62,095 bases of DNA from an uncultured Clostridia bacterium. Its GTDB lineage: Bacteria; Bacillota; Clostridia; UBA1212; UBA1255. The notes under the pieces were generated by a model. The model was not told the origin of the DNA. It did not search any database and saw only the letters and a program-made list of their open reading frames with translations. Shown one piece after another: positions 3,432 to 54,270 of this stretch. Within the stretch, counting starts at the first letter, position 1. Each line of letters opens with the position of its first letter. The stretch spans positions 1 through 62,095 of the forward strand of contig CANQOI010000004.1 of assembly GCA_947625435.1 (NCBI GenBank), given 5' to 3'. The position numbers and the translations under genes were made by a program.

Positions 3432-3560
3432 TTAAATTTTTGTAAGCTATTGTTTTTTTGCTCTTATTCGCATATAATATCAGCACAGGCATGTAACATG
3501 TGCTGTATACTCGTGCCAACGAATTAGCGTTTAAGCGTCATGTAATGGCGCCGTCCACGA

Positions 3561-3594
3561 GGGGCCGCTTAAAATGCGGCCTTTAATTTTTTTT
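3561..3594 (+). terminator. Rho-independent terminator after the endolysin
   Basis: GGCCGC (3563-3568) pairs with GCGGCC (3576-3581), followed by TTTAATTTTTTTT. Confidence 0.6.
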
Positions 3595-4584: not shown

Positions 4585-4659
4585 TGGTGACTCCTACGGG
4601 AATCGAACCCGTGTTTCCGCCGTGAGAGGGCGGTGTCTTAGCCGCTTGACCAAGGAGCC
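4585..4659 (-). tRNA. tRNA-Glu (anticodon CUC)
   Basis: The reverse complement is GGCTCCTTGGTCAAGCGGCTAAGACACCGCCCTCTCACGGCGGAAACACGGGTTCGATTCCCGTAGGAGTCACCA. The cloverleaf folds, the anticodon loop is CT-CTC-AC, a GGTTCGATTCC T-arm is present, and CCA is encoded. Confidence 0.9.
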
Positions 4660-40290: not shown

Positions 40291-40662
40291 ATGGCTCAAG
40301 ACATTACTGACAGCATATATGAGATCAGCATGCTGCTGGATTTTTACGGGCAGCTCCTGACAGACAGTCAATACAGATGCATGGACATGTATTACAATCA
40401 GGATCTGAGCCTTACGGAGATCGCGGAGGAGCTGGGAATAAGCAGACAGGGGGCCCACGACTTTATAAGAAGGGGACGCGCGGCTCTCAATGAATATGAA
40501 GATAAGCTGGGGCTCCTCGGCAAATTCAGCGATATAGAGAAGAAGCTCAGGCTGATACAGGCGGATCTGCAGCTTATAGACAGGACAGGCATGAACGACG
40601 GCAACATTTATATGCTGGATCAGATAGAACAGAATATCACGGGGATAATCACTAAGCTCTGA
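40291..40662 (+). CDS. ylxM: YlxM/UPF0122 putative DNA-binding protein (SRP operon)
   Basis: LLDFYGQLLTDSQYRCMDMYYNQDLSLTEIAEELGISRQGAHDFIRRG, located upstream of ffh. Confidence 0.9.
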   Translation: MAQDITDSIYEISMLLDFYGQLLTDSQYRCMDMYYNQDLSLTEIAEELGISRQGAHDFIRRGRAALNEYEDKLGLLGKFSDIEKKLRLIQADLQLIDRTGMNDGNIYMLDQIEQNITGIITKL

Positions 40663-40722: not shown

Positions 40723-42069
40723 ATGGCATTTGAAAGCTTATCTGCGAAGCTGCAGGCGACTATAAAGAGATTAAGAGGTCAGACGAGAGTCACGGAGAAG
40801 GATGTAAAGGAATTCATGCGCGAGATACGTCTTGCGCTGCTCGAGGCCGACGTAAACTATAAAGTGGTAAAGGATTTTACAGCTTCCGTCTCCGCAAAAG
40901 CAGTGGGACAGGACGTACTTGAGAGCCTCTCTCCCGGTCAGCAGATCGTTAAGATAGTAGATGATGAACTGACGGCGCTGTTAGGCGCCGATGACTATAA
41001 GCTCGACCTTTCCAGGACTCCGCCCAATGTCATAATGATGGTGGGCCTTCAGGGTACCGGTAAGACTACCGCCTGCGCAAAGCTTGCGGCACACCTCAGA
41101 AAACAGGGCAGGAAGCCGCTCATGGCCGCATGCGACATATACAGGCCCGCTGCCGTCACACAGCTTCAGGTGCTGGGCAGACAGATAGATATACCGGTAT
41201 ATTCGGAAGAACCGGGAGCAAAGGCGGCGGCAATAGCCGCAAATGCCGTAAAGAGCGCAGTGCGGGGCCTGAACGACGTTGTCATAGTAGATACGGCGGG
41301 ACGTCTTCAGATAGACGAAGCCCTCATGGAGGAGCTGGAAGAAATAAAAGCAGTCGTAAAGCCGTCGGAGATATTACTCGTGATAGACGCCATGACCGGA
41401 CAGGAAGCCGCAAACGTGGCCGCTGTCTTCAATGAAAGACTCTCCGTGACCGGCATAATACTTTCAAAGCTCGACAGCGACACAAGGGGCGGCGCGGCGC
41501 TTTCCGTAAGAGCGATAACCGGGCGTCCCGTTAAGTTCGCATCCAACGGAGAGAAGATAAACGATTTCGAGATATTTTACCCGAAAAGGATGGCGGACAG
41601 GATACTCGGAATGGGAGACGTGCTTACGCTGATAGACAAAGCCGTTGAAATGTATGATGAAAAACAGGCGGAAGAGCTCGAGAAAAAGCTCGCCACGCAG
41701 ACATTCACGCTCGATGACTTCCTGTCGCAGCTGCAGCAGATAAAGAAAATGGGAGGCCTTGCCGGCATACTGAAGCTCCTTCCGGGCGCCGGGCAGATAC
41801 GCGACGAGGACATAGACGAAAGACAGCTTGTAAAGGTAGAAGCCATAATACAGTCAATGACAAAGAAGGAGAAACGCAATCCGGATATACTGAACGCGAG
41901 CCGCAGAAAGAGAATAGCGGCGGGGAGCGGTACGACGGTGCAGGATGTGAACAAGCTCATGAAACAGTTCGAAGACATGCGCGCCATGATGAAAAAGTTC
42001 GGAGGCAAGGGTAAAAAAGGTATTGGCAGGAAAATGTTCGGCGGTAAGATGCCAGACATTTTCATGTAA
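40723..42069 (+). CDS. ffh: Signal recognition particle protein Ffh
   Basis: NG domain with GLQGTGKTT and DTAGRL, plus a Met-rich M domain. Confidence 0.95.
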   Translation: MAFESLSAKLQATIKRLRGQTRVTEKDVKEFMREIRLALLEADVNYKVVKDFTASVSAKAVGQDVLESLSPGQQIVKIVDDELTALLGADDYKLDLSRTPPNVIMMVGLQGTGKTTACAKLAAHLRKQGRKPLMAACDIYRPAAVTQLQVLGRQIDIPVYSEEPGAKAAAIAANAVKSAVRGLNDVVIVDTAGRLQIDEALMEELEEIKAVVKPSEILLVIDAMTGQEAANVAAVFNERLSVTGIILSKLDSDTRGGAALSVRAITGRPVKFASNGEKINDFEIFYPKRMADRILGMGDVLTLIDKAVEMYDEKQAEELEKKLATQTFTLDDFLSQLQQIKKMGGLAGILKLLPGAGQIRDEDIDERQLVKVEAIIQSMTKKEKRNPDILNASRRKRIAAGSGTTVQDVNKLMKQFEDMRAMMKKFGGKGKKGIGRKMFGGKMPDIFM

Positions 42070-42119: not shown

Positions 42120-42371
42120 ATGGTAAAGATAAGACTCAAGAGGATAGGAGCTAAGAAGGCGCCCTTCTACAGAGTGGTTGTAGCAGAATCGAAGTATTCG
42201 AGAGACGGCAGATTCATAGAGGAAATAGGAACATATAATCCCCTCGTTGATCCCGCTGAGATCAAGATAGATTCAGAGCGCGCAGACTACTGGATAAAGA
42301 ACGGTGCTCAGCCCACCGACACGGTAAAGGCGCTCCTCAAGAAGGCTGCCGAAGCAAAAACGGAAGAATAA
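42120..42371 (+). CDS. rpsP: 30S ribosomal protein S16
   Basis: [24 protein letters not shown].. Confidence 0.95.
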
Positions 42372-42407
42372 GGTCGGATTCAGACCGCACAAATGGGGTA
42401 TTTTACA

Positions 42408-42635
42408 ATGAAAGAATTCCTGGAGACCGTAGTAAAACAGCTTGTTAACCATCCTGATCAGGTGGCAATAGAAGAAGAGGAAACGGATACAAGCCTGACA
42501 CTGAAGATATCTGTTGCCGACGACGACAAAGGCAAGGTCATAGGCAAGGAGGGTAAGATCGCGAAGGCGCTGCGCACGGTCACAAAAGCAGCGGCCCGCA
42601 ATATACCCAAATCGGTGTATGTGGACATTGTATAA
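42408..42635 (+). CDS. KH-domain RNA-binding protein (KhpA/YlqC-like)
   Basis: MKEFLETVVKQLVNHPDQV..GKVIGKEGKIAKALRTV, located between rpsP and rimM. Confidence 0.85.
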   Translation: MKEFLETVVKQLVNHPDQVAIEEEETDTSLTLKISVADDDKGKVIGKEGKIAKALRTVTKAAARNIPKSVYVDIV

Positions 42636-42664: not shown

Positions 42665-43192
42665 TTGCTGAACAGAATAAGAATCGGTGAAATTGTAAAT
42701 GTTCACGGCGTCAAAGGCGCGCTTAAAGTGCTGCCTTTGACCGATGATCCCGTGCGCTTCTGCTCGCTTGCGGAGGTCGATCTCGTACCGAGACGCGGAG
42801 GGACGCCTGTTACATATAAGGTCCTTTCCGCTTCCGTGTCCGGAGGCACGGTACTTTTAAGACTGTCGGGCATAGATAACAGGAACGAAGCCGAGAAGAT
42901 GAGAGGCATGTTCCTGGAGCTTCCGAGAGAAAAGGCAGTAAAGCTTCCGGAGGACAGCTATTTCATAGGGGATCTTATAGGGTGTGACGTTGCGGACGAG
43001 GCCGGAGAGGATCTCGGCAGGCTTACGGACGTGCAGTCAACGGGCGCAAATGATATATACGAAATAACCGGAGCAGACGGCAGGACAATGTGGCTGCCCG
43101 CCATAGCGGACGTTATAAAAAGTGTTGATATAGAAAGCGGGCGCATAACAGTAAGGCTGCTGCCCGGACTCCGTGAAGTATACGATGACTAA
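42665..43192 (+). CDS. rimM: 16S rRNA processing protein RimM
   Basis: IGEIVNVHGVKGALKV.., a PRC-barrel C-terminus, and a TTG start after a GGGAGGG SD. Confidence 0.9.
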   Translation: MLNRIRIGEIVNVHGVKGALKVLPLTDDPVRFCSLAEVDLVPRRGGTPVTYKVLSASVSGGTVLLRLSGIDNRNEAEKMRGMFLELPREKAVKLPEDSYFIGDLIGCDVADEAGEDLGRLTDVQSTGANDIYEITGADGRTMWLPAIADVIKSVDIESGRITVRLLPGLREVYDD

Positions 43193-45080
43193 GAAGATTG
43201 AAATACTGACGCTCTTCCCGGACATGGTGGGAGCGGCGTTCGGCGAGAGCATAATAGCGCGGGCCGTATCAAAGGGCATATTGAACATAAAGTGCCGGCA
43301 GATAAGGGATTATACACAAAACAGGCAGGGCAAGGTAGACGACTATCCGTACAGCGGAGGCCCGGGCCTTGTGATGGCATATCAGCCCATAGCCGATTGC
43401 ATACGCGCGGCAAGCGCCGAAATAATGCAGGATAAAAGTGACGGCCTTGAAAGGCCGTATATAATATATATGTCTCCGCAGGGGACGCCTTTTACACAGA
43501 AGACCGCCGAAAGGCTCGTACAAAAGGATAACCTGATCATAATATGCGGTCACTATGAGGGTATAGACGAGCGCGTAATAGAAGAATTTGTCGATGAGGA
43601 AATATCCGTAGGCGATTTCGTGCTCACGGGCGGAGAGATACCGGCAATGTGCGTAACGGACTGCATAGCACGGCTCATACCTGGCGTGCTGGCGGAAGGC
43701 TCCGCCGAAACGGAATCTCATCAGGGACTGCTGCTCGAATATCCCCAATATACACGTCCGGCGGAGATAGAGGGCAAAAAAGTGCCCGACATACTCATAT
43801 CCGGCAATCACGATGAGATAGTGAAATGGCAGATAGAAGCGGCCGAGGAGCGCACAGCGCGCAAAAGGCCGGATCTTTTCGATATATATTCGGAACAGAA
43901 GCAGGAAAGAGAAACATTTTATTTTGACAACAGCGCCACTACGAAGCAGGACGCGCGCGTTACGGAGGTAATGAGCAGGGCCGCGCGCTTTACGTACGGC
44001 AATCCCTCATCCCTTCACAGAATGGGGCTTGAGGCAGAGAGAGCGCTTTCTGCGGCAAGGCGTGAGATAGCAGGATATATAGGCGCGCAGGAAAAAGAGA
44101 TATATTTCACATCGTGCGCAACAGAGAGCAACAACTGGGCTCTGAGAGGTTTTCTGGATGCGAACAGGCACGCGGGAAAGAGAGTGATAATATCCGCGGG
44201 AGAGCATGCTTCGGTCACAGAAACGGCGGCTGTGCTGTCTTCAATGTCGTATGACGTGCAGACAGTGCCTCTTACAAAAAACGGACTTATAAATACGGAC
44301 ATTTTAAGAGAGCTCGTTACGAAGGATACTGCCATAGTGTCTGTGGGACACGTGAACAGCGAAACAGGCGCCGTGCAGGATATAGCGGAGGCGGCGCGCA
44401 TAGTAAGGAGCATAAATCCACGCGCCGTGATACACACGGACTGCGTACAGAGCTTCGGCAAGCTGAACGTATCAGTACAGAAGCTGGGGTGCGACATGCT
44501 GAGCGTGAGCGCACACAAGATACACGGGCCGCGGGGCGTGGGCTTTTTGTACATAAGACAGGGACTGAGGCTGACGCCGCTCCTTACCGGAGGCGGTCAG
44601 GAAAGAGGCATGAGATCCGGAACGGAGAACCTGCCCGGTATAGTCGGACTCGCGGAGGCCGCACGCCTGATGTGCGGCAGGGAGAACATGGAGGAGCATT
44701 TTACCCATGTAAAGAATATGAACCGCATATTCAGGGATATTTTAACGGATGAGATACGTTCGTGCGTTATGATATCCGATGAAGATATATCGTCTCCGTA
44801 CGTACTGTGCGTCTCTTTTCCCGGGCTGCGCGCCGAGGTGATACAGCACAGCGTAGAATCCAAGGGCGTGTACATATCGGTAGGCTCCGCCTGCTCGTCG
44901 CACAAGAAGGACAGGAGCGCGACGCTCGCCGCCATGGGATACGACAACAGAACGACGGACGGCGCGGTGAGGATAAGCTTTTCATATAAGAATACAGAAA
45001 AACAGGCAGAATACGCCGCGCGCACCATATGCTCCGAGGTGAAGAAGCTCTACGGAAGGGCGAGCAGAAGGAGCAGATAA
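43185..45080 (+). CDS. trmD: Fusion protein: tRNA (guanine37-N1)-methyltransferase TrmD + class V cysteine desulfurase (NifS/NifZ-like)
   Basis: Residues 1-~240 are TrmD (IEILTLFPDMV, YPYSGGPGLVM, IIICGHYEGIDERV, GDFVLTGGEIPA, ISGNHDEIVKW). From ~nt 43915, FYFDNSATT..SAHKIHGPRGVG (PLP-Lys at nt 44517)..GSACSS (catalytic Cys) is a complete desulfurase. There is no stop at the junction. Confidence 0.8.
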   Translation: MTKKIEILTLFPDMVGAAFGESIIARAVSKGILNIKCRQIRDYTQNRQGKVDDYPYSGGPGLVMAYQPIADCIRAASAEIMQDKSDGLERPYIIYMSPQGTPFTQKTAERLVQKDNLIIICGHYEGIDERVIEEFVDEEISVGDFVLTGGEIPAMCVTDCIARLIPGVLAEGSAETESHQGLLLEYPQYTRPAEIEGKKVPDILISGNHDEIVKWQIEAAEERTARKRPDLFDIYSEQKQERETFYFDNSATTKQDARVTEVMSRAARFTYGNPSSLHRMGLEAERALSAARREIAGYIGAQEKEIYFTSCATESNNWALRGFLDANRHAGKRVIISAGEHASVTETAAVLSSMSYDVQTVPLTKNGLINTDILRELVTKDTAIVSVGHVNSETGAVQDIAEAARIVRSINPRAVIHTDCVQSFGKLNVSVQKLGCDMLSVSAHKIHGPRGVGFLYIRQGLRLTPLLTGGGQERGMRSGTENLPGIVGLAEAARLMCGRENMEEHFTHVKNMNRIFRDILTDEIRSCVMISDEDISSPYVLCVSFPGLRAEVIQHSVESKGVYISVGSACSSHKKDRSATLAAMGYDNRTTDGAVRISFSYKNTEKQAEYAARTICSEVKKLYGRASRRSR

Positions 45081-45105: not shown

Positions 45106-46290
45106 GTGGATAAGGTCATACTCGCAAGAATAGGAGAAATAGCGCTTAAAGGACTTAACAGGTCCACATTTGAGCAGAGGCTCGCGCGCAACATGAAGGC
45201 GGCCATGGGAGGCTGCGGAGATTGCTATGTCAGATGGTCGCAGTCGAGATATTACGTGGAGCCGAGGTGCGACGATTTCGATTTTGATAGGGCGCTTGAA
45301 ATGCTCAAGGGCGTTTTCGGACTTGTGTCGGTGAGCCCGGCATTCGTCACGGAATCGGAGATGTCTCATATATCGGGCCTTGCCATAGAGTGCGCCGGGC
45401 GTAAAATATCAGAGCTCAAAGGGCGGGGCATGACGGACATATCATTTAAAGTAGAAACAAAACGCGGGCTTAAGACATTCCCGCTCACATCTCTTCAGGT
45501 CTCGTCCGAAATAGGAGGACAGATATCGGATGCGTTCCCCGAGCTCAAAGTTGATGTGAACGATCCGGATTTCATACTTTATATAGAAGTCAGAGAGAAT
45601 ACATACGTATATACGGATATATATGAGGCTCCGGGCGGTATGCCCACGGGCTCTAACGGCAAAGCGTGCCTTCTCATATCGGGAGGTATAGACAGCCCGG
45701 TCGCGGGATATATGATAGCAAAAAGGGGTGTCAGCATATGTGCCGTGCATTTTTACAGCTATCCTTACACGAGCGAAAGAGCCAAAGATAAGGTGATAGA
45801 GCTCACAAAAACAGTAGGCAGATACTGCGGGGGCATAAAGCTCCTCGTAGTCCCGTATACGGAAGTGCAGCTGGCGATACAGGAGCATTGCAGGGAAGAG
45901 CTCTCCACCGTGATAATGAGAAGATCCATGATGAGGATCGCGGAGAGATGCGCGCGCAAGTACGGATGCTCCGCGCTCGTAACGGGCGAGAGCGTGGGAC
46001 AGGTAGCGAGTCAGACTATGCAGGCGCTGTACTGCACGGACGAGGCCGCAACAATGCCCGTTTTCCGTCCCCTTATAGGCATGGATAAAATGGAGGTCGT
46101 TGAAATAGCCAGAAAGATAGGCACTTTTGAAATGAGCATATTGCCGTACGAGGATTGCTGCACCGTTTTCACGCCGAAGCACCCCAAAACAAGGCCGTCG
46201 CTCAAGGAAGTGCAGGCAGAGGAGCTGAAGGCGGATTTCCCGACCCTTGAAAATGCGGCTTTCGAAGGCATAGAGATAATAAGAGCATAG
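45106..46290 (+). CDS. thiI: tRNA uracil 4-sulfurtransferase ThiI (no rhodanese domain)
   Basis: IGEIALKGLNR (N-terminal ferredoxin-like/THUMP region) and the PP-loop SGGIDSPVAGYM. The start is GTG. Confidence 0.9.
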   Translation: MDKVILARIGEIALKGLNRSTFEQRLARNMKAAMGGCGDCYVRWSQSRYYVEPRCDDFDFDRALEMLKGVFGLVSVSPAFVTESEMSHISGLAIECAGRKISELKGRGMTDISFKVETKRGLKTFPLTSLQVSSEIGGQISDAFPELKVDVNDPDFILYIEVRENTYVYTDIYEAPGGMPTGSNGKACLLISGGIDSPVAGYMIAKRGVSICAVHFYSYPYTSERAKDKVIELTKTVGRYCGGIKLLVVPYTEVQLAIQEHCREELSTVIMRRSMMRIAERCARKYGCSALVTGESVGQVASQTMQALYCTDEAATMPVFRPLIGMDKMEVVEIARKIGTFEMSILPYEDCCTVFTPKHPKTRPSLKEVQAEELKADFPTLENAAFEGIEIIRA

Positions 46291-46330: not shown

Positions 46331-47554
46331 ATGTATGTAACTTATTGGTACGGACCGCCGGAAAAATTCCTGAACAGCAAAGTGTACGAAGATGTCAAGA
46401 ATGCGGGTTTTACACTTGCAGGGCCCATGGCCAGCGGCGGCGTTACGGTGGAAACGAATCTGAGATTCCTTGACATATGTGCGGAGCAGGGCATGAAGGC
46501 TTGCATATATGACTCAAGGGTGGATGAAGCCATGAAGCTTCACAGGGAAAATGACAAGGCCTGGCGCGAGCGCATAAGATCCGTGACTGAGGATTACAGG
46601 CACCATCCGGCACTTTACAGCTATTACGTACTGGACGAGCCTACGGCTCACCTATTCGGCATGCTGGCCGATATAGTGGCGGCATTCAAAGAATATGATC
46701 CGGAGCATCCGGCATATATAAACCTGCTGCCCAATTATGCCACGATAGAACAGATAGGCACGCCCACGTATTATGACTACGTAAAGGACTTCATAGAAAA
46801 AGTAAAGCCGGCATTCGTGAGCTATGACCACTATCATTTTCTGGAGGTCAGCGCGGACAGCGTGCAGGGACAGGAGGCAGACATAGAGGAGACGGACGAC
46901 GAACGCGAGAACGCCATAAGGCGCTCCGCAATGATAAACATAGACAGGCCGGGCTTCTTTGAAAATCTGGAGATAGTAAGAGAGCTTGCCGAGGCGCACA
47001 ACATACCCTTCATGGTGATAGTACTGCTCATACAGCACGGGCCTTACAGGAACCTAACGGAGGCGGAGCTCCGCTTCGAGGCATTTCAGTCACTGGCATA
47101 CGGCGCTGACATGCTTTCATACTTTACATACTGGACCGTGATAGAGCCTGGTTCCTGGTGGAATTGGCGCAACGGATGCATAAGCTGCGACGGCACCGAG
47201 AAGCTTCAGCATTATTATGACGTTTCAAAAGTGAACCGCGACGTACACGCATACGCGGAATATCTTGACGGTCGCAAGCTTGTAAAGGTGACGCACGTAG
47301 GCAAAATAAATGACAAGGTAGAATACTTTACGGGTAATATATGCTCGGAGTCGCCCGTACAGCTCACTATAGGAGAATTTGAGGGCGGCTACACGGTCAT
47401 AGCGAATAAGGACATATCGGGAAAAGCCGTTTTCAGAGCAGACATAGCGCGCGGCGCCGCAAGACTTGATACGGAAAGCGGAGAATTCAGAGAGCTTCCG
47501 GACGGAGAGATCGTATTGGAGGCCGGAGACATGGCGCTCATAAGGCGCCTGTGA
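46331..47554 (+). CDS. Hypothetical protein, possibly a clan GH-A-like TIM-barrel glycoside hydrolase
   Basis: There is no signal peptide. HPALYSYYVLDEPT resembles the NEP-type acid/base strand of clan GH-A. The context is sugar genes. The assignment is weak. Confidence 0.3.
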   Translation: MYVTYWYGPPEKFLNSKVYEDVKNAGFTLAGPMASGGVTVETNLRFLDICAEQGMKACIYDSRVDEAMKLHRENDKAWRERIRSVTEDYRHHPALYSYYVLDEPTAHLFGMLADIVAAFKEYDPEHPAYINLLPNYATIEQIGTPTYYDYVKDFIEKVKPAFVSYDHYHFLEVSADSVQGQEADIEETDDERENAIRRSAMINIDRPGFFENLEIVRELAEAHNIPFMVIVLLIQHGPYRNLTEAELRFEAFQSLAYGADMLSYFTYWTVIEPGSWWNWRNGCISCDGTEKLQHYYDVSKVNRDVHAYAEYLDGRKLVKVTHVGKINDKVEYFTGNICSESPVQLTIGEFEGGYTVIANKDISGKAVFRADIARGAARLDTESGEFRELPDGEIVLEAGDMALIRRL

Positions 47555-47570: not shown

Positions 47571-48554
47571 ATGTTTAACTATTCAGTAATTTTGGGCAAT
47601 GTAGGTCAGTGCTCGGACAGATACATGACTTGCGGCTATGACAGGCCCTTTGAGCTTCCGGAGCTTTTTGAGAGAGTGGCATCGATACCGGGAGTCACGG
47701 GCGTGGAATATATAGGAAATTGGCACTTGTCCGACAAGACTGTTCATCAGATAAGCGATCTGCAGAAGCAGTACGGCCTGCGCGCGGTCGCTGTAATACC
47801 GGATCATTTCGGAACACCCATATGGGGCAAGGGCGCATTCACGGCTCCGGATAAGGATGTGCGTAAGGCGGCGGTAGCCGAGACACTTAAAACTGCGGAG
47901 CTTGCAAGGGAGATAGGCTGTCCTATCATAAGCATATGGAACGGACAGGACGGCTACGACTACCCGCTGCAGGCCGATTACATAAATGCGGGACAGTGGC
48001 TTGCCGAGGGACTCGGAGAATGCTGCACGCTGGCGCCCGACATGAAGATATCGCTTGAATACAAGCCCAAGGAGCCGAGGAACCACTGCTTCATACCCAA
48101 TGTGTGGTCGGCTCTTACACTGATCGCCGAGTCCGGCGTTCCCAACATGGGCATCACCATAGACGTAGGCCACTCGCTTGAGGCATATGAGAACGTATCG
48201 GAGGCCGTATGCGCCGCCATGTCGCGCGGTAAGATGTTCCATTTCCACATGAACGACAACTGGAGACTCTGGGACGACGATATGATAGCCGGCTCCGTAC
48301 ACACCATAGAATTCATAGAAATGTTCTATTGGCTCAAAAAGCTGGACTACACGGGCTTCATATCCACGGATCAGTATCCGTACCGCGAAAACAGCAGGGA
48401 CGCCGTTGCCCAGACCGTGAAATGGATGCAGACATTTGAGAGGATAGCGGATGAGATAGATATGGATGAAGTACAGGCGATACTTGACAGAAACGATGCC
48501 GTGGCTTCCAACGAATATCTGAGACGCCTCATGTTCGGCCGCTTCGGCATATGA
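47571..48554 (+). CDS. Sugar phosphate isomerase/epimerase (xylose-isomerase-like TIM barrel)
   Basis: SLEYKPKEPR, IDVGHS and HFHMNDN metal-ligand motifs typical of the AP_endonuc_2/xylose-isomerase-like family. Confidence 0.7.
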   Translation: MFNYSVILGNVGQCSDRYMTCGYDRPFELPELFERVASIPGVTGVEYIGNWHLSDKTVHQISDLQKQYGLRAVAVIPDHFGTPIWGKGAFTAPDKDVRKAAVAETLKTAELAREIGCPIISIWNGQDGYDYPLQADYINAGQWLAEGLGECCTLAPDMKISLEYKPKEPRNHCFIPNVWSALTLIAESGVPNMGITIDVGHSLEAYENVSEAVCAAMSRGKMFHFHMNDNWRLWDDDMIAGSVHTIEFIEMFYWLKKLDYTGFISTDQYPYRENSRDAVAQTVKWMQTFERIADEIDMDEVQAILDRNDAVASNEYLRRLMFGRFGI

Positions 48555-48789: not shown

Positions 48790-51700
48790 ATGCGCATTGA
48801 CGGCGGCGACAGCCGCATCATACCGTCTGATGAGTGGATAGCCGACAATCATCATATAATAGAGGAGGCCGCGGAAGCGGCGGTAAATGAGAAATATCCG
48901 AGATCCTTATACGGAAGGGCGGATATATCGAGAGCATATGAGATAGCCTCTGAAATAGTCGGGCATACGGACGGTAAAGTGACGGAAACGGAGATAACGG
49001 ATTTCGTATCCGCCTATGAAAAGGTAAGGCCGCTCAACGAAGCGGAGCTTTCTGTACTGAAGAGCATGCTGAGGCTGGCTCTCATAGAAAGACTTTCCGA
49101 TATATGCGTATCCTCCGATTCTATATACAGGGACAGGAAAGAATGCACACGCATATTCAAGGAATATATGTCGTATATGCCGTATTCGGAGAGCAGTGAG
49201 AGAGAACAGAAAAGGTCGGCGGATATTTTATTCGAAAACGAAGAAATGCTGAGGCCCGTGTTTGCCGAAACGGTCCTGAGACTGTATGCGGAGCGTGAGG
49301 ACAACGGCGGAGACGCCGTGCGCGAAGCGCTGTCAAGAAGACTGGCGGCAAAGGGCACGACAGTAGACGCTGTGATAGCAAGAGCGCATGAAATGCGCAT
49401 TTCACTCGGCGTTTCGGCCGGCAATGCCGTAAAAAGCCTTCAGGGTCTTTCATCGCTTGACTGGGACGGCATGATGTCGGAGCTGTGCGTCACGGAGCAG
49501 ATACTTAACGGCGACCCGGCGGGCATATTCGGCCGCATGACGCCGGAAACAAGGGCCGAATATGTAAGGCTTGCAAGAGTATGCGCGCGCAGGAGAGGCG
49601 AAACGCCCGAGGAGTTTGCGCTCTATGCGGCCTCGGCGGCAGCAGAGGCCGCGCAAAGGGGCGCCTCGGAGTGCGAGTGCCATGTAGGCAGATATATATA
49701 CGACGAGTATACAAAGAAAAACGAATTCAGACCGTTCAGATACATGTTTGCCTTTATAACGCTGATACTCGCGTTCTGCCCCGCGGTGTATGCGTGGAGA
49801 GAGTGCATTGACGGGCACTCGCTCATAGGCGTACTGCCTGCCGCGGTAATAACGGCGCTCATACTTACAGTGAGCATGGGCCTTGCACTGACAGCGGCCC
49901 AGAACATATTCATGGAAAGAAGAATGCCCTTCCGGCTCCCGGCTCTCGACTTTCAAGGAAAGCTCCCCGAGGGCCTCCGCATAATGACAGTCATACCGTG
50001 CATTTTAAGCACCGAGGAGCACACAGACGAGATAATGCGTGAAATAGAAGCCGCCGCATGGGCGAATCCCCAGGAGGGCATATATTACACCGTGCTTGCG
50101 GACCTGCCCGAGTCGGATACGAGAACGCGTCCGGAGGACGCCCGCGCGCAGGAATACGCAAGAAAGCTCACAGACAGTCTCAACCGGAGGTTCATGCGCA
50201 TACGCGGCACGGACGAAGAATTGTTCCACATACTCATAAGAGGGCGCGTATTTTACGAGAAAGACAAAAAGTGGAGGGGATACGAAAGAAAGCGCGGAGC
50301 ACTGACTGAGCTGAACAGAGCCGTTATAAACGGAACGCTGCCCCGCGTCGATTATGTGCTCACGGTGGATGAGGGCACCGTAATACCCGTAAATACAGCC
50401 GTGTCTCTGGCACAGATAATGCATCATCCTCTCAATCGCCCCGAGGTCACATATATAGGCGCGGAGCCTGTCGTGACGAAGGGCTATGCCATACTCCAGC
50501 CCGCCATGAGCCATTCCGGGCTTGACAGAGAAAATGCGACATTATTTGAGAAAATATATTCGGACGACTCCGGATATGACTCGTATCAGAGCAGAACGTC
50601 CGATTTTTATTTTGATATATGCCATGAGGGGATCTACACGGGAAAAGGAATGTACGATCCGTACATTTTTAACGGCATACTGGAAGGCAGGTTCAAAGAA
50701 GACAGCATACTGAGCCACGATCTTCTGGAGGGCTCGTATCTTAGGACGGGCTTCGCATCAGGCATACACCTTTACGAGAATTTCCCGAAGAGTCTTGCGG
50801 GCCATTCCGCGAGACTCCACAGGTGGCTGAGGGGAGACTGGCAGCTGCTTCCTTTTATGGGCAGGCGCTTTGAGGACGCAAAGTCGGCAATGCGTAAAAA
50901 TCCACTCAACGCATATTCTCTCTTTAAAATGCGTATGAACATTTTACGGGGAGTGATGCCCTGCGCTGCGCTGCTCCTTCTTTTTGCGGGCATTTATCTC
51001 GTAAGGAGACTCACGCCCATGTGGGTAATGATAACAGTCATATATGCCGCCGCCACGGCGGGAGGCGGCAGCGTGCCCGTAAGGCTGCTGCGCGGCTTCT
51101 TTAATATACTGTTCCTGCCGCACGCGGCATACTGTCATGCAGACGCGGCCGTAAGAGCCCTGTGGCGCACATACAGGAGCAGAAAAAACATGCTCGAATG
51201 GGTCGTGTCCACCGATACCGGCGGCAGAACCTGCGATTCTCCTTCGTATTATTGCAGGCTCATGTGGCCCTGCTTTGCGGCGGCGGCAGCGGCGGCGCCC
51301 TTCATGTACGGCATTCCGAGCGTTCTGTGGATAACGGCTCCCTTTGCCGCGTATATCATATCGCACAGACCCGTTTCACGCGGTAAAAGACACGCATATG
51401 TGCCGGATGAGATATCCGTTCGTAAAATGCGTTTCACGGCGCGTAAAATATGGGCGTTTTACGAGGATCTGGCGGGAAAGGAGGAAAATCATCTGCCTCC
51501 CGACAACGTGCAGTTCTCGCCCGTGTACTCGGTGGCGCACAGGACTTCGCCCACGAATATAGGATTTCTCATAATATCCGTCATCATATCGCACCGGTTC
51601 GGATATATATCGAAGGCTGAAATGATATCACGTCTTTCGGACATAACGGATACGCTGTGCAGGACGGAAAAATGGAACGGGCATCTGCTCAATTGGTACG

Positions 51701-54270
51701 ACACGACAACGCTGGAGCCGTTGGAACCGAGATACGTATCAAGCGTGGACAGCGGCAATCTGTGCGCGTGCCTCCTTACGGCCGCCTCGTATCTGAGCGG
51801 CGGCGCATGCGGCGCAGAGGGTAAGGACCGGCTTTTTGAGGAGGCGGAGGGCATGCTCGATACTGTCTACTGCCTCAATGCGCTGGCGGACGAGGACGGC
51901 AAGGTGGACGAAAGACCGCTCGAAAAGCTCTTGAGCCGCGACGCCTCCGAAAACGAATTCAGGGCGGTGATAGATCATTACAGGGAAAGCCTCCGTGAAA
52001 GAGCCGGCGAGAACGCGGGCGCGCATTCACTGAGGCTCGCGCTCATGCGCACGGCGGAAAGACTGGGCAAAAAGCTCGGCGGCGCAACGGAATGCGGGAA
52101 TGAAAGCGCTCTTAAAGAGACGGCCTTCAGGATGGCGGACTTGGCGCTTAAAATGGATTTCGGAGCGCTCTACGATAAAAAAAGAAGACAGCTCCGTATA
52201 GGTTACAATTGCTCGGAGAGCAGATTCTCGGATTCGTATTACGACATGCTCATGTCGGAAGCGAGGCTCACATCGTATGCGGCAATGGCAAAGGGCGACA
52301 TAGGAGAGGAGCATTTCGTATCCCTTGCGCGCAGGTGGAACGGGAAAGGCACAATGCTGCTATCGTGGTCGGGCACCGTTTTCGAATATATGATGCCCGA
52401 GCTCTTCATGCCTTCGCCCTGCGGCTCCGCACTTTCTGTGTCGGTGAGTGAAATGCTGGATACGGAAATAAAAGGCGCGCCTCCGGACACTCCCTGGGGC
52501 ATATCGGAATCGGGCTACAATGTGCCCGATATAAACATGAATTACAAATACAAGGCCTTCGGCATGAAGGAGCTGGCGGTAAAGAGGATACAGGGCTCCG
52601 AGCATGTGACGGCGCCCTACGCTTCATTGATGTCCTGCGCTCACAGACCGTTGGAGGTCATAAAAAACATGGATCTTATGGCCCAAAAGGGCGCGCTCGG
52701 GCGGTACGGATTCTATGAAGCGCTGGATGATACGCCGGGTCGCAGGGGCATCGTGGAAAGCTTTATGGCCCACCATCTCGGAATGTCGCTCTGCGGCATA
52801 GCGAACACGCTGTTTGACGGCATGATATCGAAGGCGTTTTCGGAAATGCCCATGATGAGGAGCATAAGAGTCATATTGACCGAGAAGCATGCGCCGCATG
52901 TAAAACGGGCAATGCGTGCAAAGCAGAGATTGCACAGGCGCGGGCGCGGGCAGGGTGAGATAGGAAAGAACGCGCCCGCCCCGAAGGCAGAGAGCGAAGC
53001 CGCTCTCATATACGGCCGCGACGCCGAAGTGCTCTCAAACGGCAGATACAGCGCCGTTTTAAACGGCTCGGGAGGCGGCTATTCAATGCTTGACGGCATT
53101 TTACTGAACGTAAAACGCATGGGCGGCGAATGCCGCGGCACGGTATTTTACCTTAACGGCAAGGCGCTCTCTCCCGTAAAATGCGTGCACGACTCCGGTA
53201 AAACGGAGTATACGTACTACACCGGGACAGCCGATGTGACACAGACAGTGTGCGTATTTCAGAACGCGGACGCGGAGCTGAGGAAGATACGCATCACGAA
53301 CAACACGGAAAATGCGAGGCTTTACAATATAACGGCATATACGGAAATAATGCTGGCATCTCAGGCGGCATACGAGGCGCACCCTTCGTATTCGAACATG
53401 TTCGTGACCACAAGGGCGCGCACAGACATCGCGGGAATGCCCTTAGTCCTCACGGCGGAAAGAAGGAGGCATTCTCCGGAGGAAAAGCGCCTTACGGCAT
53501 ACTGCGCCCTGAGAAACCCCGATAAGGACGGCAAAAACACGGAAAACGTTATGTACGACACTGACATACTGAGCTTCACGGGAAGGAACAGAAGCCCGGA
53601 GAAACCCGAGGTGTTCGAGAAAGACGGTGCGGGAGAGGACGTGCTCCTTTCTATGAACACGGGCACGGTACTGAACCCCTGCTTTGCGGTGAACGCGGAA
53701 GTGCGGGTCGGTGCGGGAGAGAGCGCGGAGATAGAACTCATATTCGGTATGAGCGCGGGCGGCCCGGAGGAGGCCTGTGATGTATCGGAGAAGCTTGACG
53801 AGAGCGGCAGGGCTTTTGAGCTGGCAAGGACAAGGAGCATAATAGAAAACGAGCATATATCGCTGCGTAAGGGCGACACGGCATATTTCAGGAGCTTTTC
53901 GTCAAAGCTGCTGTACGGCAGAAAAAGCTGCCCGGAGGCGCTCCGTAAAAAGCTGTGGAGCTTCGGCATATCCGGAGACAATCCCATAATAACGGTCATG
54001 CTGCGCCGTACCGAAAATGCGGCGAGGCTCGAAAAGATAGTGAGAATGTGGTGCTTCTACAGCTTCAGAGGCATGAAAACAGACATGGTGATAGCAGTCT
54101 TTGACAATTCGGACTATATGAGTCCAGTAAGGGAGCTGGCGGGAAGCGTGGCGTCGAAGGCTATGTGGGGATATTTCACGGTGCGGGGAGACATTTTCGT
54201 AATAGCGCCGAAGGACTCCGAAAGCGCGGTGCCGCTCATAGAGAGCGCGAATGTCGTTTTCTGGCTGTGA
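48790..54270 (+). CDS. Cyclic beta-1,2-glucan synthase-like protein, N-terminal part (N-domain + GT84 + TM block + glucoamylase-like/cyclisation region + first GH94-N-like module)
   Basis: DEWIADNHHIIEE, the GT84-type SHDLLEGSYLR..RLHRWLRGDWQLLPF, multiple TM helices, and an alpha/alpha-barrel-like region (YVSSVDSGNL.., GISESGYN.., GFYEALD). The conserved-looking coding sequence seems to extend upstream of the first ATG. Confidence 0.7.
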   Translation: MRIDGGDSRIIPSDEWIADNHHIIEEAAEAAVNEKYPRSLYGRADISRAYEIASEIVGHTDGKVTETEITDFVSAYEKVRPLNEAELSVLKSMLRLALIERLSDICVSSDSIYRDRKECTRIFKEYMSYMPYSESSEREQKRSADILFENEEMLRPVFAETVLRLYAEREDNGGDAVREALSRRLAAKGTTVDAVIARAHEMRISLGVSAGNAVKSLQGLSSLDWDGMMSELCVTEQILNGDPAGIFGRMTPETRAEYVRLARVCARRRGETPEEFALYAASAAAEAAQRGASECECHVGRYIYDEYTKKNEFRPFRYMFAFITLILAFCPAVYAWRECIDGHSLIGVLPAAVITALILTVSMGLALTAAQNIFMERRMPFRLPALDFQGKLPEGLRIMTVIPCILSTEEHTDEIMREIEAAAWANPQEGIYYTVLADLPESDTRTRPEDARAQEYARKLTDSLNRRFMRIRGTDEELFHILIRGRVFYEKDKKWRGYERKRGALTELNRAVINGTLPRVDYVLTVDEGTVIPVNTAVSLAQIMHHPLNRPEVTYIGAEPVVTKGYAILQPAMSHSGLDRENATLFEKIYSDDSGYDSYQSRTSDFYFDICHEGIYTGKGMYDPYIFNGILEGRFKEDSILSHDLLEGSYLRTGFASGIHLYENFPKSLAGHSARLHRWLRGDWQLLPFMGRRFEDAKSAMRKNPLNAYSLFKMRMNILRGVMPCAALLLLFAGIYLVRRLTPMWVMITVIYAAATAGGGSVPVRLLRGFFNILFLPHAAYCHADAAVRALWRTYRSRKNMLEWVVSTDTGGRTCDSPSYYCRLMWPCFAAAAAAAPFMYGIPSVLWITAPFAAYIISHRPVSRGKRHAYVPDEISVRKMRFTARKIWAFYEDLAGKEENHLPPDNVQFSPVYSVAHRTSPTNIGFLIISVIISHRFGYISKAEMISRLSDITDTLCRTEKWNGHLLNWYDTTTLEPLEPRYVSSVDSGNLCACLLTAASYLSGGACGAEGKDRLFEEAEGMLDTVYCLNALADEDGKVDERPLEKLLSRDASENEFRAVIDHYRESLRERAGENAGAHSLRLALMRTAERLGKKLGGATECGNESALKETAFRMADLALKMDFGALYDKKRRQLRIGYNCSESRFSDSYYDMLMSEARLTSYAAMAKGDIGEEHFVSLARRWNGKGTMLLSWSGTVFEYMMPELFMPSPCGSALSVSVSEMLDTEIKGAPPDTPWGISESGYNVPDINMNYKYKAFGMKELAVKRIQGSEHVTAPYASLMSCAHRPLEVIKNMDLMAQKGALGRYGFYEALDDTPGRRGIVESFMAHHLGMSLCGIANTLFDGMISKAFSEMPMMRSIRVILTEKHAPHVKRAMRAKQRLHRRGRGQGEIGKNAPAPKAESEAALIYGRDAEVLSNGRYSAVLNGSGGGYSMLDGILLNVKRMGGECRGTVFYLNGKALSPVKCVHDSGKTEYTYYTGTADVTQTVCVFQNADAELRKIRITNNTENARLYNITAYTEIMLASQAAYEAHPSYSNMFVTTRARTDIAGMPLVLTAERRRHSPEEKRLTAYCALRNPDKDGKNTENVMYDTDILSFTGRNRSPEKPEVFEKDGAGEDVLLSMNTGTVLNPCFAVNAEVRVGAGESAEIELIFGMSAGGPEEACDVSEKLDESGRAFELARTRSIIENEHISLRKGDTAYFRSFSSKLLYGRKSCPEALRKKLWSFGISGDNPIITVMLRRTENAARLEKIVRMWCFYSFRGMKTDMVIAVFDNSDYMSPVRELAGSVASKAMWGYFTVRGDIFVIAPKDSESAVPLIESANVVFWL

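What the first reader, a model, noticed from the sequence alone, without database searches (positions are those of the whole stretch)
43185..45080. TrmD fused in frame to a cysteine desulfurase, followed by thiI; rplS missing from the rpsP-rimM-trmD operon
A single 631-codon ORF contains a complete TrmD (m1G37 methyltransferase) and a complete class V cysteine desulfurase. The join is at ~nt 43900-43925, through a short Lys/Glu-rich linker. The desulfurase has its PLP lysine in SAHK and its catalytic Cys in GSACSS.

The next gene is thiI (s4U8 synthesis, lacking a rhodanese domain), which in Bacillus depends on a dedicated desulfurase, NifZ. The locus therefore physically couples two unrelated tRNA-modification activities. 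It also replaces rplS, which normally follows trmD. I am not aware of a described TrmD-NifS fusion.
Basis: partly seen in the sequence, partly recalled or inferred. Interest (0 to 1): 0.65.

Follow-up and report, generated by a model that had tools for sequence, protein, structure and literature searches.

The report
Natural TrmD–cysteine desulfurase fusion enzyme
An uncultured group of gut Clostridia makes one protein that joins the essential tRNA methylase TrmD to the cysteine desulfurase that feeds sulfur to the tRNA-thiolating enzyme ThiI; the join is real and conserved, but close relatives carry the same two genes unjoined, so it looks like a by-product of tight gene packing and not a new mechanism.

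Summary
Window 43185-45080 (+) is one 631-codon ORF with a complete TrmD (aa 4-242) and a complete group-I cysteine desulfurase (aa 245-631). A rhodanese-less thiI follows 25 nt downstream, and no rplS lies in the 62 kb. The fusion is not an artefact. At least 103 other protein clusters (49-76% identity) from independent assemblies share the architecture, and the catalytic residues of both halves are invariant. Carriers are uncultured Clostridia/Oscillospiraceae-type MAGs, in which NCBI names the protein only "TrmD". Among 1.84 billion cluster representatives (50% identity) only one is a full-length fusion, so this is one narrow family. Sister lineages have rimM-trmD-nifZ-thiI unfused at the same operon position, with a 4-nt stop/start overlap. 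Deleting 2 or 11 nt there reproduces the fused junctions. The closest unfused desulfurases almost always precede thiI (NifZ type). The "rplS replaced" reading fails, because ten unfused relatives also lack rplS after trmD. Most likely this is a bifunctional protein created by operon compaction, with each half doing its usual job. No paper describing it was found. Interest is moderate.

The parts
40291..40662 (+). ylxM (UPF0122), first gene of the same-strand cluster
   Evidence: Pfam PF04297 E 1.9e-23. The same gene order is seen in relatives L001-L005.
40723..42069 (+). ffh (SRP54)
   Evidence: Pfam SRP54_N/SRP54/SRP_SPB.
42120..42371 (+). rpsP (ribosomal protein S16)
   Evidence: Pfam PF00886 E 3.5e-27.
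42393..42635 (+). khpA-type KH-domain protein
   Evidence: Pfam PF13083 E 6.9e-23.
42665..43192 (+). rimM; its stop overlaps the fusion's ATG by 8 nt
   Evidence: Pfam RimM + PRC_RimM; gap of -8 nt.
43185..45080 (+). trmD::nifZ fusion ORF, 631 aa
   Evidence: At least 103 homologous full-length fusion clusters.
43185..43877 (+). TrmD half (aa 1-231, ending at RPDL). Catalytic-base position E177 = nt 43713-43715; R163; D52/D53
   Evidence: TIGR00088 279.9 bits > 195. 45% identity to E. coli TrmD with D169->E177, R154->R163, D50/D51->D52/D53. These positions are conserved in 51-53 of 53 fused forms and in all split and unfused relatives.
43878..43919 (+). 14-aa linker FDIYSEQKQERETF, in effect the former TrmD C-terminal tail
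   Evidence: Linker length classes are 14 aa (63 proteins), 15 (26), 4 (14) and 30 (1). It is modelled as part of a helix spanning aa 229-243, pLDDT about 85. No in-frame ATG/GTG/TTG occurs before M262 (read).
43917..45077 (+). Group-I (NifS/IscS-like, NifZ-type) cysteine desulfurase half (aa 245-631). PLP Lys K445 = nt 44517-44519; persulfide Cys C570 = nt 44892-44894
   Evidence: PF00266 E 8.4e-71. 36% identity to E. coli IscS with H104/D180/Q183/S203/H205/K206/T243/C328/R354 all matched; seven of these are invariant and two (S442, H444) at least 90% conserved across 58 fusions. Foldseek to 1ecx: TM 0.95, rmsd 1.5-1.6 A.
45106..46290 (+). thiI, short rhodanese-less type, 25 nt downstream of the fusion
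   Evidence: TIGR00342 354.8 bits > 264.5. SGGIDS PP-loop; EDCCTVF aligns with E. coli C344; no rhodanese. thiI follows the fusion in all 7 fused loci examined.

Best explanation
This is a genuine, conserved bifunctional gene. It arose when a nifZ-thiI pair came to lie directly after trmD in an uncultured gut/rumen Clostridia (Oscillospirales-type) lineage whose trmD was no longer followed by rplS. The trmD stop and the nifZ start overlapped (ATGA/TTGA). A small frame-restoring deletion (2 nt or 11 nt) removed both signals and welded the TrmD C-terminal tail to the first strand of the desulfurase. Inferred mechanism: the N-terminal half works as an ordinary dimeric TrmD, using SAM to make m1G37. 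The C-terminal half works as an ordinary PLP-dependent group-I desulfurase that forms a persulfide on C570. It passes that sulfur to the CC motif of the downstream short ThiI, which adenylates and thiolates U8 (s4U8), as in Bacillus NifZ-ThiI. The covalent link itself is probably not mechanistically required. It fixes 1:1 co-expression of two dimeric tRNA-modification enzymes inside the ffh-rpsP-rimM operon. Shown here: the architecture, its recurrence, residue conservation, synteny, the split sister state and the junction arithmetic. Inferred only: both enzymatic activities, sulfur transfer to ThiI, and independence of the two halves.
For: The ORF and domains are complete. There are 104 full-length fusions including the window, at 49-76% identity, from ENA, JGI, NCBI and Logan assemblies. 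Synteny rimM-[trmD::nifZ]-thiI holds in L001-L005 and L086, and fusion+thiI sit together away from rimM in L085. Catalytic residues of both halves are conserved: most are invariant and the rest at least 90% conserved in 58 fusions. The trmD here is the only one in the window and sits at the canonical position. Of 68 closest unfused desulfurases, 65 are followed directly by thiI. Split forms with a 4-nt overlap occupy the same operon position in 5 contigs from 5 samples. L089-like minus 2 nt gives a 15-aa linker ...DKREIYFDNSATT like the 15-aa class, and L093-like minus 11 nt gives ...GETFYFDNAATT, 30/36 nt identical to the window junction. The fused+split clade has 98% bootstrap support in the desulfurase tree. 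Only one fusion representative exists among 1.84e9 cluster representatives. The AF2 model has pLDDT 88.7, with low confidence only in the two loops known to be mobile. ThiI is the Bacillus type, and B. subtilis NifZ+ThiI suffice for s4U (PMC5372745).
Against: No activity, transcript or peptide evidence exists, and no RNA runs were available. The direction of change (split to fused, or fused to split) is not proven: fused-form monophyly has only 62% (desulfurase) and 8% (TrmD) bootstrap support. The conserved linker length classes, the helical linker and pTM 0.77 could mean a fixed inter-domain geometry that is selected for, which would fit functional coupling better than a neutral weld. Whether these genomes carry a second trmD or other desulfurases is unknown.
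Confidence: 0.72

Rival explanations
1. Functional coupling. The fusion builds a (TrmD-NifZ)2-ThiI assembly in which TrmD's tRNA binding brings substrate tRNA to the sulfur-relay machinery, or the reverse, so that m1G37 and s4U8 are installed on the same tRNA in one encounter or regulate each other.
For: The fusion has been retained down to 49% identity with thiI always adjacent, even after relocation away from rimM in L085. Linker length is restricted to 14-15 aa in 89 of 104 proteins, and one clade has a 4-aa linker. The linker is predicted helical, and pTM 0.77 suggests a defined domain arrangement.
Against: Sister lineages work with separate trmD and nifZ genes. Linker sequence is not conserved, only its length. 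From general knowledge, m1G37 is made on G36G37 tRNAs only, whereas s4U8 is made on most tRNAs and at a distant site, so substrate sets and sites differ.
Confidence: 0.12
2. The fused desulfurase is the cell's general sulfur donor (Fe-S clusters, other thionucleosides) and not a ThiI-dedicated NifZ. Its place next to thiI is only historical.
For: All NifS/IscS equivalog models score strongly but below their cutoffs, so no specific subfamily is assigned. No other desulfurase occurs in the 62-kb window.
Against: The nearest unfused relatives are nearly always the gene immediately upstream of thiI, the NifZ signature. The protein ends near the position of IscS residue 389 and lacks the ~15-residue extreme C-terminus of E. 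coli IscS; from general knowledge this region contacts IscU (alignment). The rest of the genome is unseen, so SufS or IscS may exist elsewhere.
Confidence: 0.12
3. One half is a degenerate pseudo-enzyme, for example TrmD kept only as a tRNA-binding or dimerisation module, or the desulfurase kept only as a scaffold.
For: The TrmD catalytic base D169 is Glu (E177) and not Asp. The NifS-type equivalog cutoffs are not reached.
Against: Glu at that position is universal in fused (53/53), split (3/3) and unfused (11/11) relatives, and also occurs in the solved C. nitroreducens TrmD. All other catalytic, SAM and PLP residues are invariant or at least 90% conserved. This is the only trmD at the canonical position, and trmD is generally essential.
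Confidence: 0.04
4. Assembly or sequencing artefact: a missed stop codon or frameshift between two separate genes.
For: Closely related genomes do carry the two genes separately, with only a 2-11 nt difference at the junction.
Against: The fused frame recurs in more than 100 clusters from SPAdes, MEGAHIT, JGI and Logan assemblies, with three distinct linker lengths that are each clade-specific. A public-run contig reproduces the window junction exactly.
Confidence: 0.01

Closest known systems
Bacillus subtilis NifZ-ThiI pair (dedicated cysteine desulfurase encoded immediately upstream of a rhodanese-less ThiI; PMC5372745)
   Same: It has a group-I desulfurase directly upstream of a short ThiI (NFLD+THUMP+PP-loop, no rhodanese) with the same EDCCT(V/I)F cysteine motif. 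The inferred persulfide relay from the desulfurase Cys to ThiI is the same.
   Different: Here the desulfurase has no start codon of its own and is the C-terminal 387 residues of the TrmD polypeptide. Identity to Bacillaceae NifZ-position genes is only 38-39%. The pair sits inside the ffh-rpsP-rimM operon.
Canonical TrmD in the rpsP-rimM-trmD-rplS operon (E. coli; locus L087)
   Same: It has the same upstream order rpsP-(khpA)-rimM-trmD with rimM/trmD overlap, 45% identity, and the same SAM-binding and catalytic positions.
   Different: rplS is absent downstream, the catalytic-base position is Glu and not Asp (a lineage-wide trait), and there is a 390-residue C-terminal extension.
TrmD-Tm1570 fusion of Calditerrivibrio nitroreducens (PDB 8b1n; PMC11187310; bioRxiv 10.1101/2023.03.13.532328)
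   Same: It is a natural C-terminal fusion to TrmD. Its TrmD part is the best PDB sequence match to this one and also has Glu at the D169 position. It is reported to form a compact homodimer whose domains can function on their own.
   Different: The partner there is a second SPOUT knotted methyltransferase domain. Here it is a PLP-dependent fold-type-I desulfurase from a different pathway.
Other sulfur-relay fusions: E. coli ThiI with its C-terminal rhodanese domain; NifS-TusA fusion proteins (P0190)
   Same: Sulfur-relay components are joined in one polypeptide.
   Different: In those cases the fused partners pass sulfur to each other. TrmD has no known role in sulfur transfer.

Membership tests
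TrmD (tRNA m1G37 methyltransferase, SPOUT) | Matches curated TrmD models above the trusted cutoff | tested here: met
   TIGR00088 279.9 bits (cutoff 195); NF000648 287.8 (cutoff 220); PF01746 E 4.7e-54.
TrmD (tRNA m1G37 methyltransferase, SPOUT) | SAM-binding knot motifs (E. coli G113-x-Y115-E116-G117; S132-I-G-D-Y..L-S/T-G-G-E) plus R154 and D50/D51 | tested here: met
   CGHYEGIDER, SVGDFVLTGGE, R163 and D52/D53 align with the E. coli residues. They are invariant in 58 fusions, except D53, which is at least 90% conserved.
TrmD (tRNA m1G37 methyltransferase, SPOUT) | Acidic general base at E. coli D169 | tested here: met
   The residue is Glu (E177) and not Asp. Glu is found in 53/53 fused, 3/3 split and 11/11 unfused relatives, and in solved TrmD 8byh/8b1n.
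TrmD (tRNA m1G37 methyltransferase, SPOUT) | Homodimer with an inter-subunit active site; m1G37 activity | not testable with these tools
   Only a monomer model was possible, and no assay was possible.
Group-I cysteine desulfurase (NifS/IscS class) | Fold-type-I PLP enzyme with the Schiff-base Lys in S-x-H-K | tested here: met
   SAHK with K445 aligned to IscS K206. K445 is invariant; S442 and H444 are at least 90% conserved. Foldseek TM 0.95 to 1ecx.
Group-I cysteine desulfurase (NifS/IscS class) | Catalytic Cys in the mobile SSGSAC(T/S)S-type loop | tested here: met
   VGSACSS with C570 aligned to IscS C328 and invariant. The loop 569-574 has pLDDT <50, as expected for a mobile loop.
Group-I cysteine desulfurase (NifS/IscS class) | PLP and substrate ligands H104, D180, Q183, T243, R354 (IscS numbering) | tested here: met
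   H341, D419, Q422, T480 and R596 are all invariant.
NifS or IscS proper (NCBIfam equivalogs) | Score above the equivalog cutoff | tested here: not met
   TIGR03402 NifS 346.5 < 530.75; NF010611 IscS 294.4 < 548; PRK02948 281.6 < 304. It should therefore not be filed as NifS or IscS proper.
NifZ-type (ThiI-dedicated) desulfurase | Encoded immediately upstream of a rhodanese-less thiI | tested here: met
   This holds in the window and in all 7 fused loci. Of the 68 nearest unfused homologs, 65 have thiI directly downstream. The definition is taken from PMC5372745.
NifZ-type (ThiI-dedicated) desulfurase | Persulfide transfer to ThiI sufficient for s4U8 | not testable with these tools
   This is a biochemical assay.
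Short (Bacillus-type) ThiI | NFLD+THUMP+PP-loop with SGGxDS, Cys equivalent to E. coli C344, no rhodanese | tested here: met
   TIGR00342 354.8 > 264.5. SGGIDS is present, C351/C352 align with C344, and the rhodanese region is absent.
[4Fe-4S]-dependent ThiI (archaeal type) | Conserved CxxC plus a third Cys in the PP-loop domain | tested here: not met
   There is no CxxC in the PP-loop domain. An N-terminal C37-x-x-C40 is not conserved among fusion-clade ThiIs.
Canonical trmD operon (rpsP-rimM-trmD-rplS) | rplS immediately downstream of trmD | tested here: not met
   There is no L19 hit in the window or in 22 related trmD loci, using a probe validated on E. coli L087.

The most novel reading that the evidence does not exclude
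The fusion is the core of a dedicated tRNA-modification assembly. A symmetric (TrmD-NifZ)2 dimer, held in fixed geometry by the short helical linker, docks ThiI and tRNA so that anticodon-loop methylation and U8 thiolation are coordinated on one tRNA, or so that sulfur/cysteine status gates the essential m1G37 step. It would also be a natural case in which a deep trefoil knot must fold with a 390-residue domain attached to its C-terminus.
Probability: 0.12. Interest if true: 0.7.

Novelty: new variant of a known kind. Interest (0 to 1): 0.4.

Why it matters
Both enzymes and the NifZ-ThiI relay are well known. What is new is the domain architecture and its clear evolutionary trail: adjacent genes with an overlapping stop/start, then a 2-11 nt deletion, then one polypeptide. 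There are four practical points. (1) Annotation: NCBI names these 610-650-aa proteins only 'TrmD', so the desulfurase is not visible in metabolic reconstructions of these gut MAGs. (2) The natural split and fused sister forms are a ready-made experiment on whether gene fusion of two obligate homodimers changes function. (3) TrmD is a knotted protein and an antibiotic target. A natural TrmD with a large C-terminal PLP domain bears on how deep knots fold, alongside the studied TrmD-Tm1570. (4) In Oscillospirales-type Clostridia the textbook trmD-rplS linkage is broken, and trmD has become prone to C-terminal fusions (NifZ, GNAT, others).

Tried and rejected
1. Artefact hypothesis: rejected because the fusion recurs in many assemblies and an identical public contig spans the junction.

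It is a source of comparators and not a census.

3. Transcript evidence: no RNA runs are listed.

4. Promoter/terminator scan: counts were no higher than in shuffles, so it says nothing about operon limits. Operon membership rests on the short gaps (-8 to 60 nt) and on conserved order.

5. Locating rplS: it is absent from 1.23 Mb of window plus loci.

6. My first idea, that the window linker's 'RE' is a relic of the NifZ N-terminus MRE.., was replaced by the better-fitting 11-nt-deletion alignment with L093.

7. Single origin of the fused state: NJ trees looked supportive, but bootstraps are weak (62% and 8%). I therefore leave one versus several fusions, or a fission, open.

8. Internal translation start that could give a free desulfurase: there is no in-frame ATG/GTG/TTG between aa 232 and M262, and starting at M262 would delete the DNSATT strand (read).

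9. Fe-S-type ThiI: rejected.

10. Literature: two full-text searches found no description of the fusion. Subscription journals are not covered.
Full report
OBSERVATION. The window carries one uninterrupted + strand ORF from 43185 (ATG; an alternative GTG lies at 43173) to 45080, giving 631 aa. Pfam finds a complete tRNA_m1G_MT domain (aa 26-229, E 4.7e-54) and a complete Aminotran_5 domain (aa 246-609, E 8.4e-71). NCBIfam places TrmD (TIGR00088) at aa 4-242 with 279.9 bits, above its cutoff of 195. NifS/IscS/DndA-type desulfurase models hit aa 245-622 strongly (up to 346.5 bits), but all fall below their equivalog cutoffs. RPDL, the end of the TrmD core, stops at aa 231. The first desulfurase strand, FYFDNSATT, starts at aa 245. 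That leaves a 14-residue linker, FDIYSEQKQERETF (nt 43878-43919). SAHK (K445) and GSACSS (C570) are present.

The next gene, 25 nt downstream (45106-46290), is a 394-aa ThiI with ThiI_fer, THUMP and PP-loop domains and no rhodanese. Upstream lie ylxM, ffh, rpsP, a KH-domain gene and rimM, separated by gaps of 21-60 nt, and rimM overlaps the fusion ATG by 8 nt. An L19 probe finds no rplS anywhere in the 62 kb. I verified that probe against the true E. coli rplS; the B. subtilis version recovers E. coli rplS at 130 bits.

NOT AN ARTEFACT. A search of 5.8 billion proteins returned more than 100 clusters (90% identity) carrying both PF01746 and PF00266, 598-652 aa long, at 76% down to 49% identity, from ENA, JGI, NCBI and Logan assemblies. 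By motif, 104 are full-length fusions including the window. One cluster alone (P0019) was seen on 162 contigs. A contig of a rabbit-gut metagenome run matches 43633-43932 with no differences. That run may be the source sample, so it confirms the reads but not independence.

Named carriers are all uncultured MAGs labelled Clostridia, Clostridiales, Oscillospiraceae or Ruminococcaceae bacterium. NCBI names the protein only 'tRNA (guanosine(37)-N1)-methyltransferase TrmD'.

HOW WIDESPREAD. In a library of 1.84 billion 50%-identity representatives read exhaustively by HMMER, only one representative (P0098, 681 bits) matches over the full length. Every other hit covers one half only, at 386 bits or less. 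Any independent TrmD-desulfurase fusion would have outscored those single-domain hits. So this is one narrow family and not a recurrent architecture across bacteria.

BOTH HALVES LOOK ACTIVE. I aligned the TrmD half to E. coli TrmD taken from the annotated genome (45% identity). R154, D50/D51 and the SAM-knot motifs GxYEG and SxGDxxLTGGE are all matched. The general base D169 is Glu (E177). This is not fusion-specific: Glu is found in 53/53 fused, 3/3 split and 11/11 unfused relatives. It is also found in the best PDB match, the C. nitroreducens TrmD (8byh/8b1n).

I aligned the desulfurase half to E. coli IscS (36% identity). H104, D180, Q183, S203, H205, K206, T243, C328 and R354 map to H341, D419, Q422, S442, H444, K445, T480, C570 and R596. 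Across 58 diverse fusions seven of these are invariant, and S442 and H444 are at least 90% conserved.

An AlphaFold2 model built on that alignment has mean pLDDT 88.7 and pTM 0.77. The only weak segments are the Cys loop 569-574 and the TrmD inter-domain loop around E177, both known to be mobile in the free enzymes. The linker is part of a helix (aa 229-243, pLDDT about 85) that runs straight into the first desulfurase strand. Foldseek superimposes the C-terminal half on the T. maritima NifS-like protein 1ecx (TM 0.95, rmsd 1.5-1.6 A). No solved structure spans both halves. There is no second trmD or desulfurase in the window. No in-frame start codon exists that could yield a free desulfurase before M262.

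WHAT KIND OF DESULFURASE. Among the 68 closest unfused homologs it returned (37-45% identity; Lachnospiraceae, Ruminococcus, Bacillaceae, Streptococcus and others), 65 have thiI directly downstream. That is the defining arrangement of B. subtilis NifZ-ThiI, where the two proteins suffice for s4U8 synthesis (PMC5372745). The window ThiI shares the Bacillus-type features: SGGIDS, an EDCCTVF motif aligned with E. coli C344, no rhodanese, and no conserved CxxC of the Fe-S type. I therefore read the C-terminal half as a NifZ-type, ThiI-serving desulfurase. It should not be filed as NifS or IscS proper, because those equivalog cutoffs are not met.

CONTEXT IN RELATIVES AND THE rplS QUESTION. The order ylxM-ffh-rpsP-KH-rimM-[trmD::nifZ]-thiI is kept in fused loci at 72%, 56% and 54% identity (L001-L005), and rimM-fusion-thiI in L086. 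In the most distant member (L085, 49%) fusion+thiI sit together after pgi, away from rimM. What follows thiI differs in each lineage.

None of the 22 related trmD loci has rplS: 7 fused, 5 split and 10 unfused loci, the unfused ones from Acutalibacteraceae, Oscillospiraceae, Ruminococcaceae and other Clostridia MAGs. In total 1.23 Mb was scanned. So rplS had left the trmD operon in this order regardless of the fusion, and the reading 'nifZ-thiI replaces rplS' is not supported.

In the same unfused relatives trmD carries other C-terminal additions. These include a GNAT acetyltransferase (L073, L076, L084, P0257), an unassigned 240-aa extension (L075), a solute-binding domain (P0115) and a second TrmD (P0118).

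THE SPLIT SISTER STATE. Four unfused desulfurases fell inside or next to the fusion clade in a first tree. Three of them (P0111, P0113, P0116) were looked up, and their contigs (five, from five samples) show rimM-trmD (233-235 aa)-nifZ (382-384 aa) in the same operon position, with thiI directly after nifZ in the four contigs that extend that far. trmD and nifZ overlap by 4 nt. At the junction, L089 reads ..GENMDK* with ATGA overlapping MREIYFDNSATT. L093 reads ..GETF* with TTGA overlapping (M)NEIYFDNAATT.

Removing the TG of the ATGA in L089 gives a 15-aa linker ..DKREIYFDNSATT, the pattern of the 15-aa class (for example P0071 ..PNREIYLDNSATT). Removing 11 nt from L093 gives ..GETFYFDNAATT, whose DNA is 30/36 identical to the window's junction ..RETFYFDNSATT.

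Linker lengths fall into classes of 14 aa (63 proteins), 15 (26), 4 (14) and 30 (1). The 4-aa class is one clade (94-99% bootstrap) and is therefore a later deletion. The fused+split clade is strongly supported in the desulfurase tree (98%), and the split forms are monophyletic (98% and 72%). Monophyly of the fused forms relative to the split forms is weak (62% desulfurase, 8% TrmD).

I consider split-to-fused the more parsimonious direction. A small deletion suffices for that change, whereas a fission would have to create a stop, a start and a ribosome-binding site at once. Still, one fusion, several fusions, or a fission cannot be distinguished with these data.

MECHANISM. Shown: a conserved single polypeptide with two intact catalytic centres, always next to a short ThiI. 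Inferred: the TrmD half methylates G37, the desulfurase half loads a persulfide on C570 and hands it to ThiI's CC motif for s4U8, and the two activities are independent. Because sister lineages manage with separate genes, the covalent link is most likely a product of operon compaction. It fixes 1:1 expression and is tolerated because TrmD's C-terminal tail and the desulfurase N-terminus are both free ends.

The restricted linker lengths, the helical linker and pTM 0.77 leave room for a selected, fixed geometry. Both parents are obligate homodimers with inter-subunit active sites (general knowledge), so the fused chain must satisfy two dimer interfaces at once. I could not test this. The more exciting reading, a coordinated TrmD-NifZ-ThiI-tRNA assembly, is not excluded, and I give it about 0.12.

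COMPARISON AND NOVELTY. The closest systems are the B. subtilis NifZ-ThiI pair (same relay, unfused), canonical TrmD (same enzyme and upstream operon), and the C. nitroreducens TrmD-Tm1570 fusion, a characterised natural TrmD C-terminal fusion that forms a compact homodimer. Two full-text searches found no description of a TrmD-desulfurase fusion.

The sequences are public but labelled only as TrmD. I rate this a new variant of a known kind: a previously undescribed domain architecture of two well-known enzymes, confined to one uncultured gut Clostridia lineage, with an unusually clear origin.

VERDICT. Interest is 0.4.

Noticed in passing
L073:7995-9284, L076:7989-9302, L084:1915-3201; protein P0257: TrmD fused to a C-terminal GNAT acetyltransferase domain (about 430 aa) in Oscillospiraceae/Ruminococcaceae/Candidatus Limivicinus MAGs. 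This is a second recurrent TrmD fusion in the same order, also at the rimM-trmD position and also without rplS.
   Followed up: partly
L075:602-2011: A 469-aa TrmD with a C-terminal extension of about 240 aa that has no Pfam match (goat-rectum Clostridia MAG).
   Followed up: partly
L079:4578-10322: In a Ruminococcus sp. MAG the order is ffh-rpsP-(RNase T-like exonuclease)-nifS-thiI, with no khpA/rimM/trmD between. So nifS-thiI lies next to the ffh-rpsP cluster in another lineage without trmD being involved.
   Followed up: partly
L085:1962-5230: In the most divergent fusion member (P0108, 49% identity) the fusion and thiI sit after pgi and not after rimM. The trmD::nifZ-thiI pair has therefore moved as a unit.
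   Followed up: partly
proteins P0190, P0202, P0204, P0115, P0118: Other fusion architectures were met among the hits: NifS-TusA, NifS-NTPase_1, MGDG-synthase-NifS, TrmD-solute-binding protein, and a tandem TrmD-TrmD. None was checked for recurrence, so some may be gene-calling artefacts.
   Followed up: no
window 3478-3592 (+): A full-length match to the Rfam DUF3800-I RNA motif (RF02969, 86.8 bits against a gathering score of 44.2).
   Followed up: no
window 4588-4659 (-): A tRNA gene (Rfam RF00005, 63.9 bits).
   Followed up: no
window 48790-54270 (+): A very large ORF (1826 aa) with a GH94 supersandwich, a glucoamylase-like region and a weak GT2 region. It resembles cyclic beta-1,2-glucan synthase/phosphorylase-type proteins.
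   Followed up: no
window 46331-47554 (+): A 407-aa ORF immediately after thiI with no Pfam match. It is followed by a xylose-isomerase-like TIM-barrel gene (47571-48554). Neither is conserved downstream of thiI in relatives.
   Followed up: partly
window thiI 45106-46290 and relatives L001, L003, L085, L086, L089: ThiI proteins of the fusion/split clade carry 11-13 cysteines, against 2-4 in the Bacillaceae and Streptococcus ThiI compared. Several align between members (window C188, C212, C262, C288, C310). Their significance is unknown.
   Followed up: no
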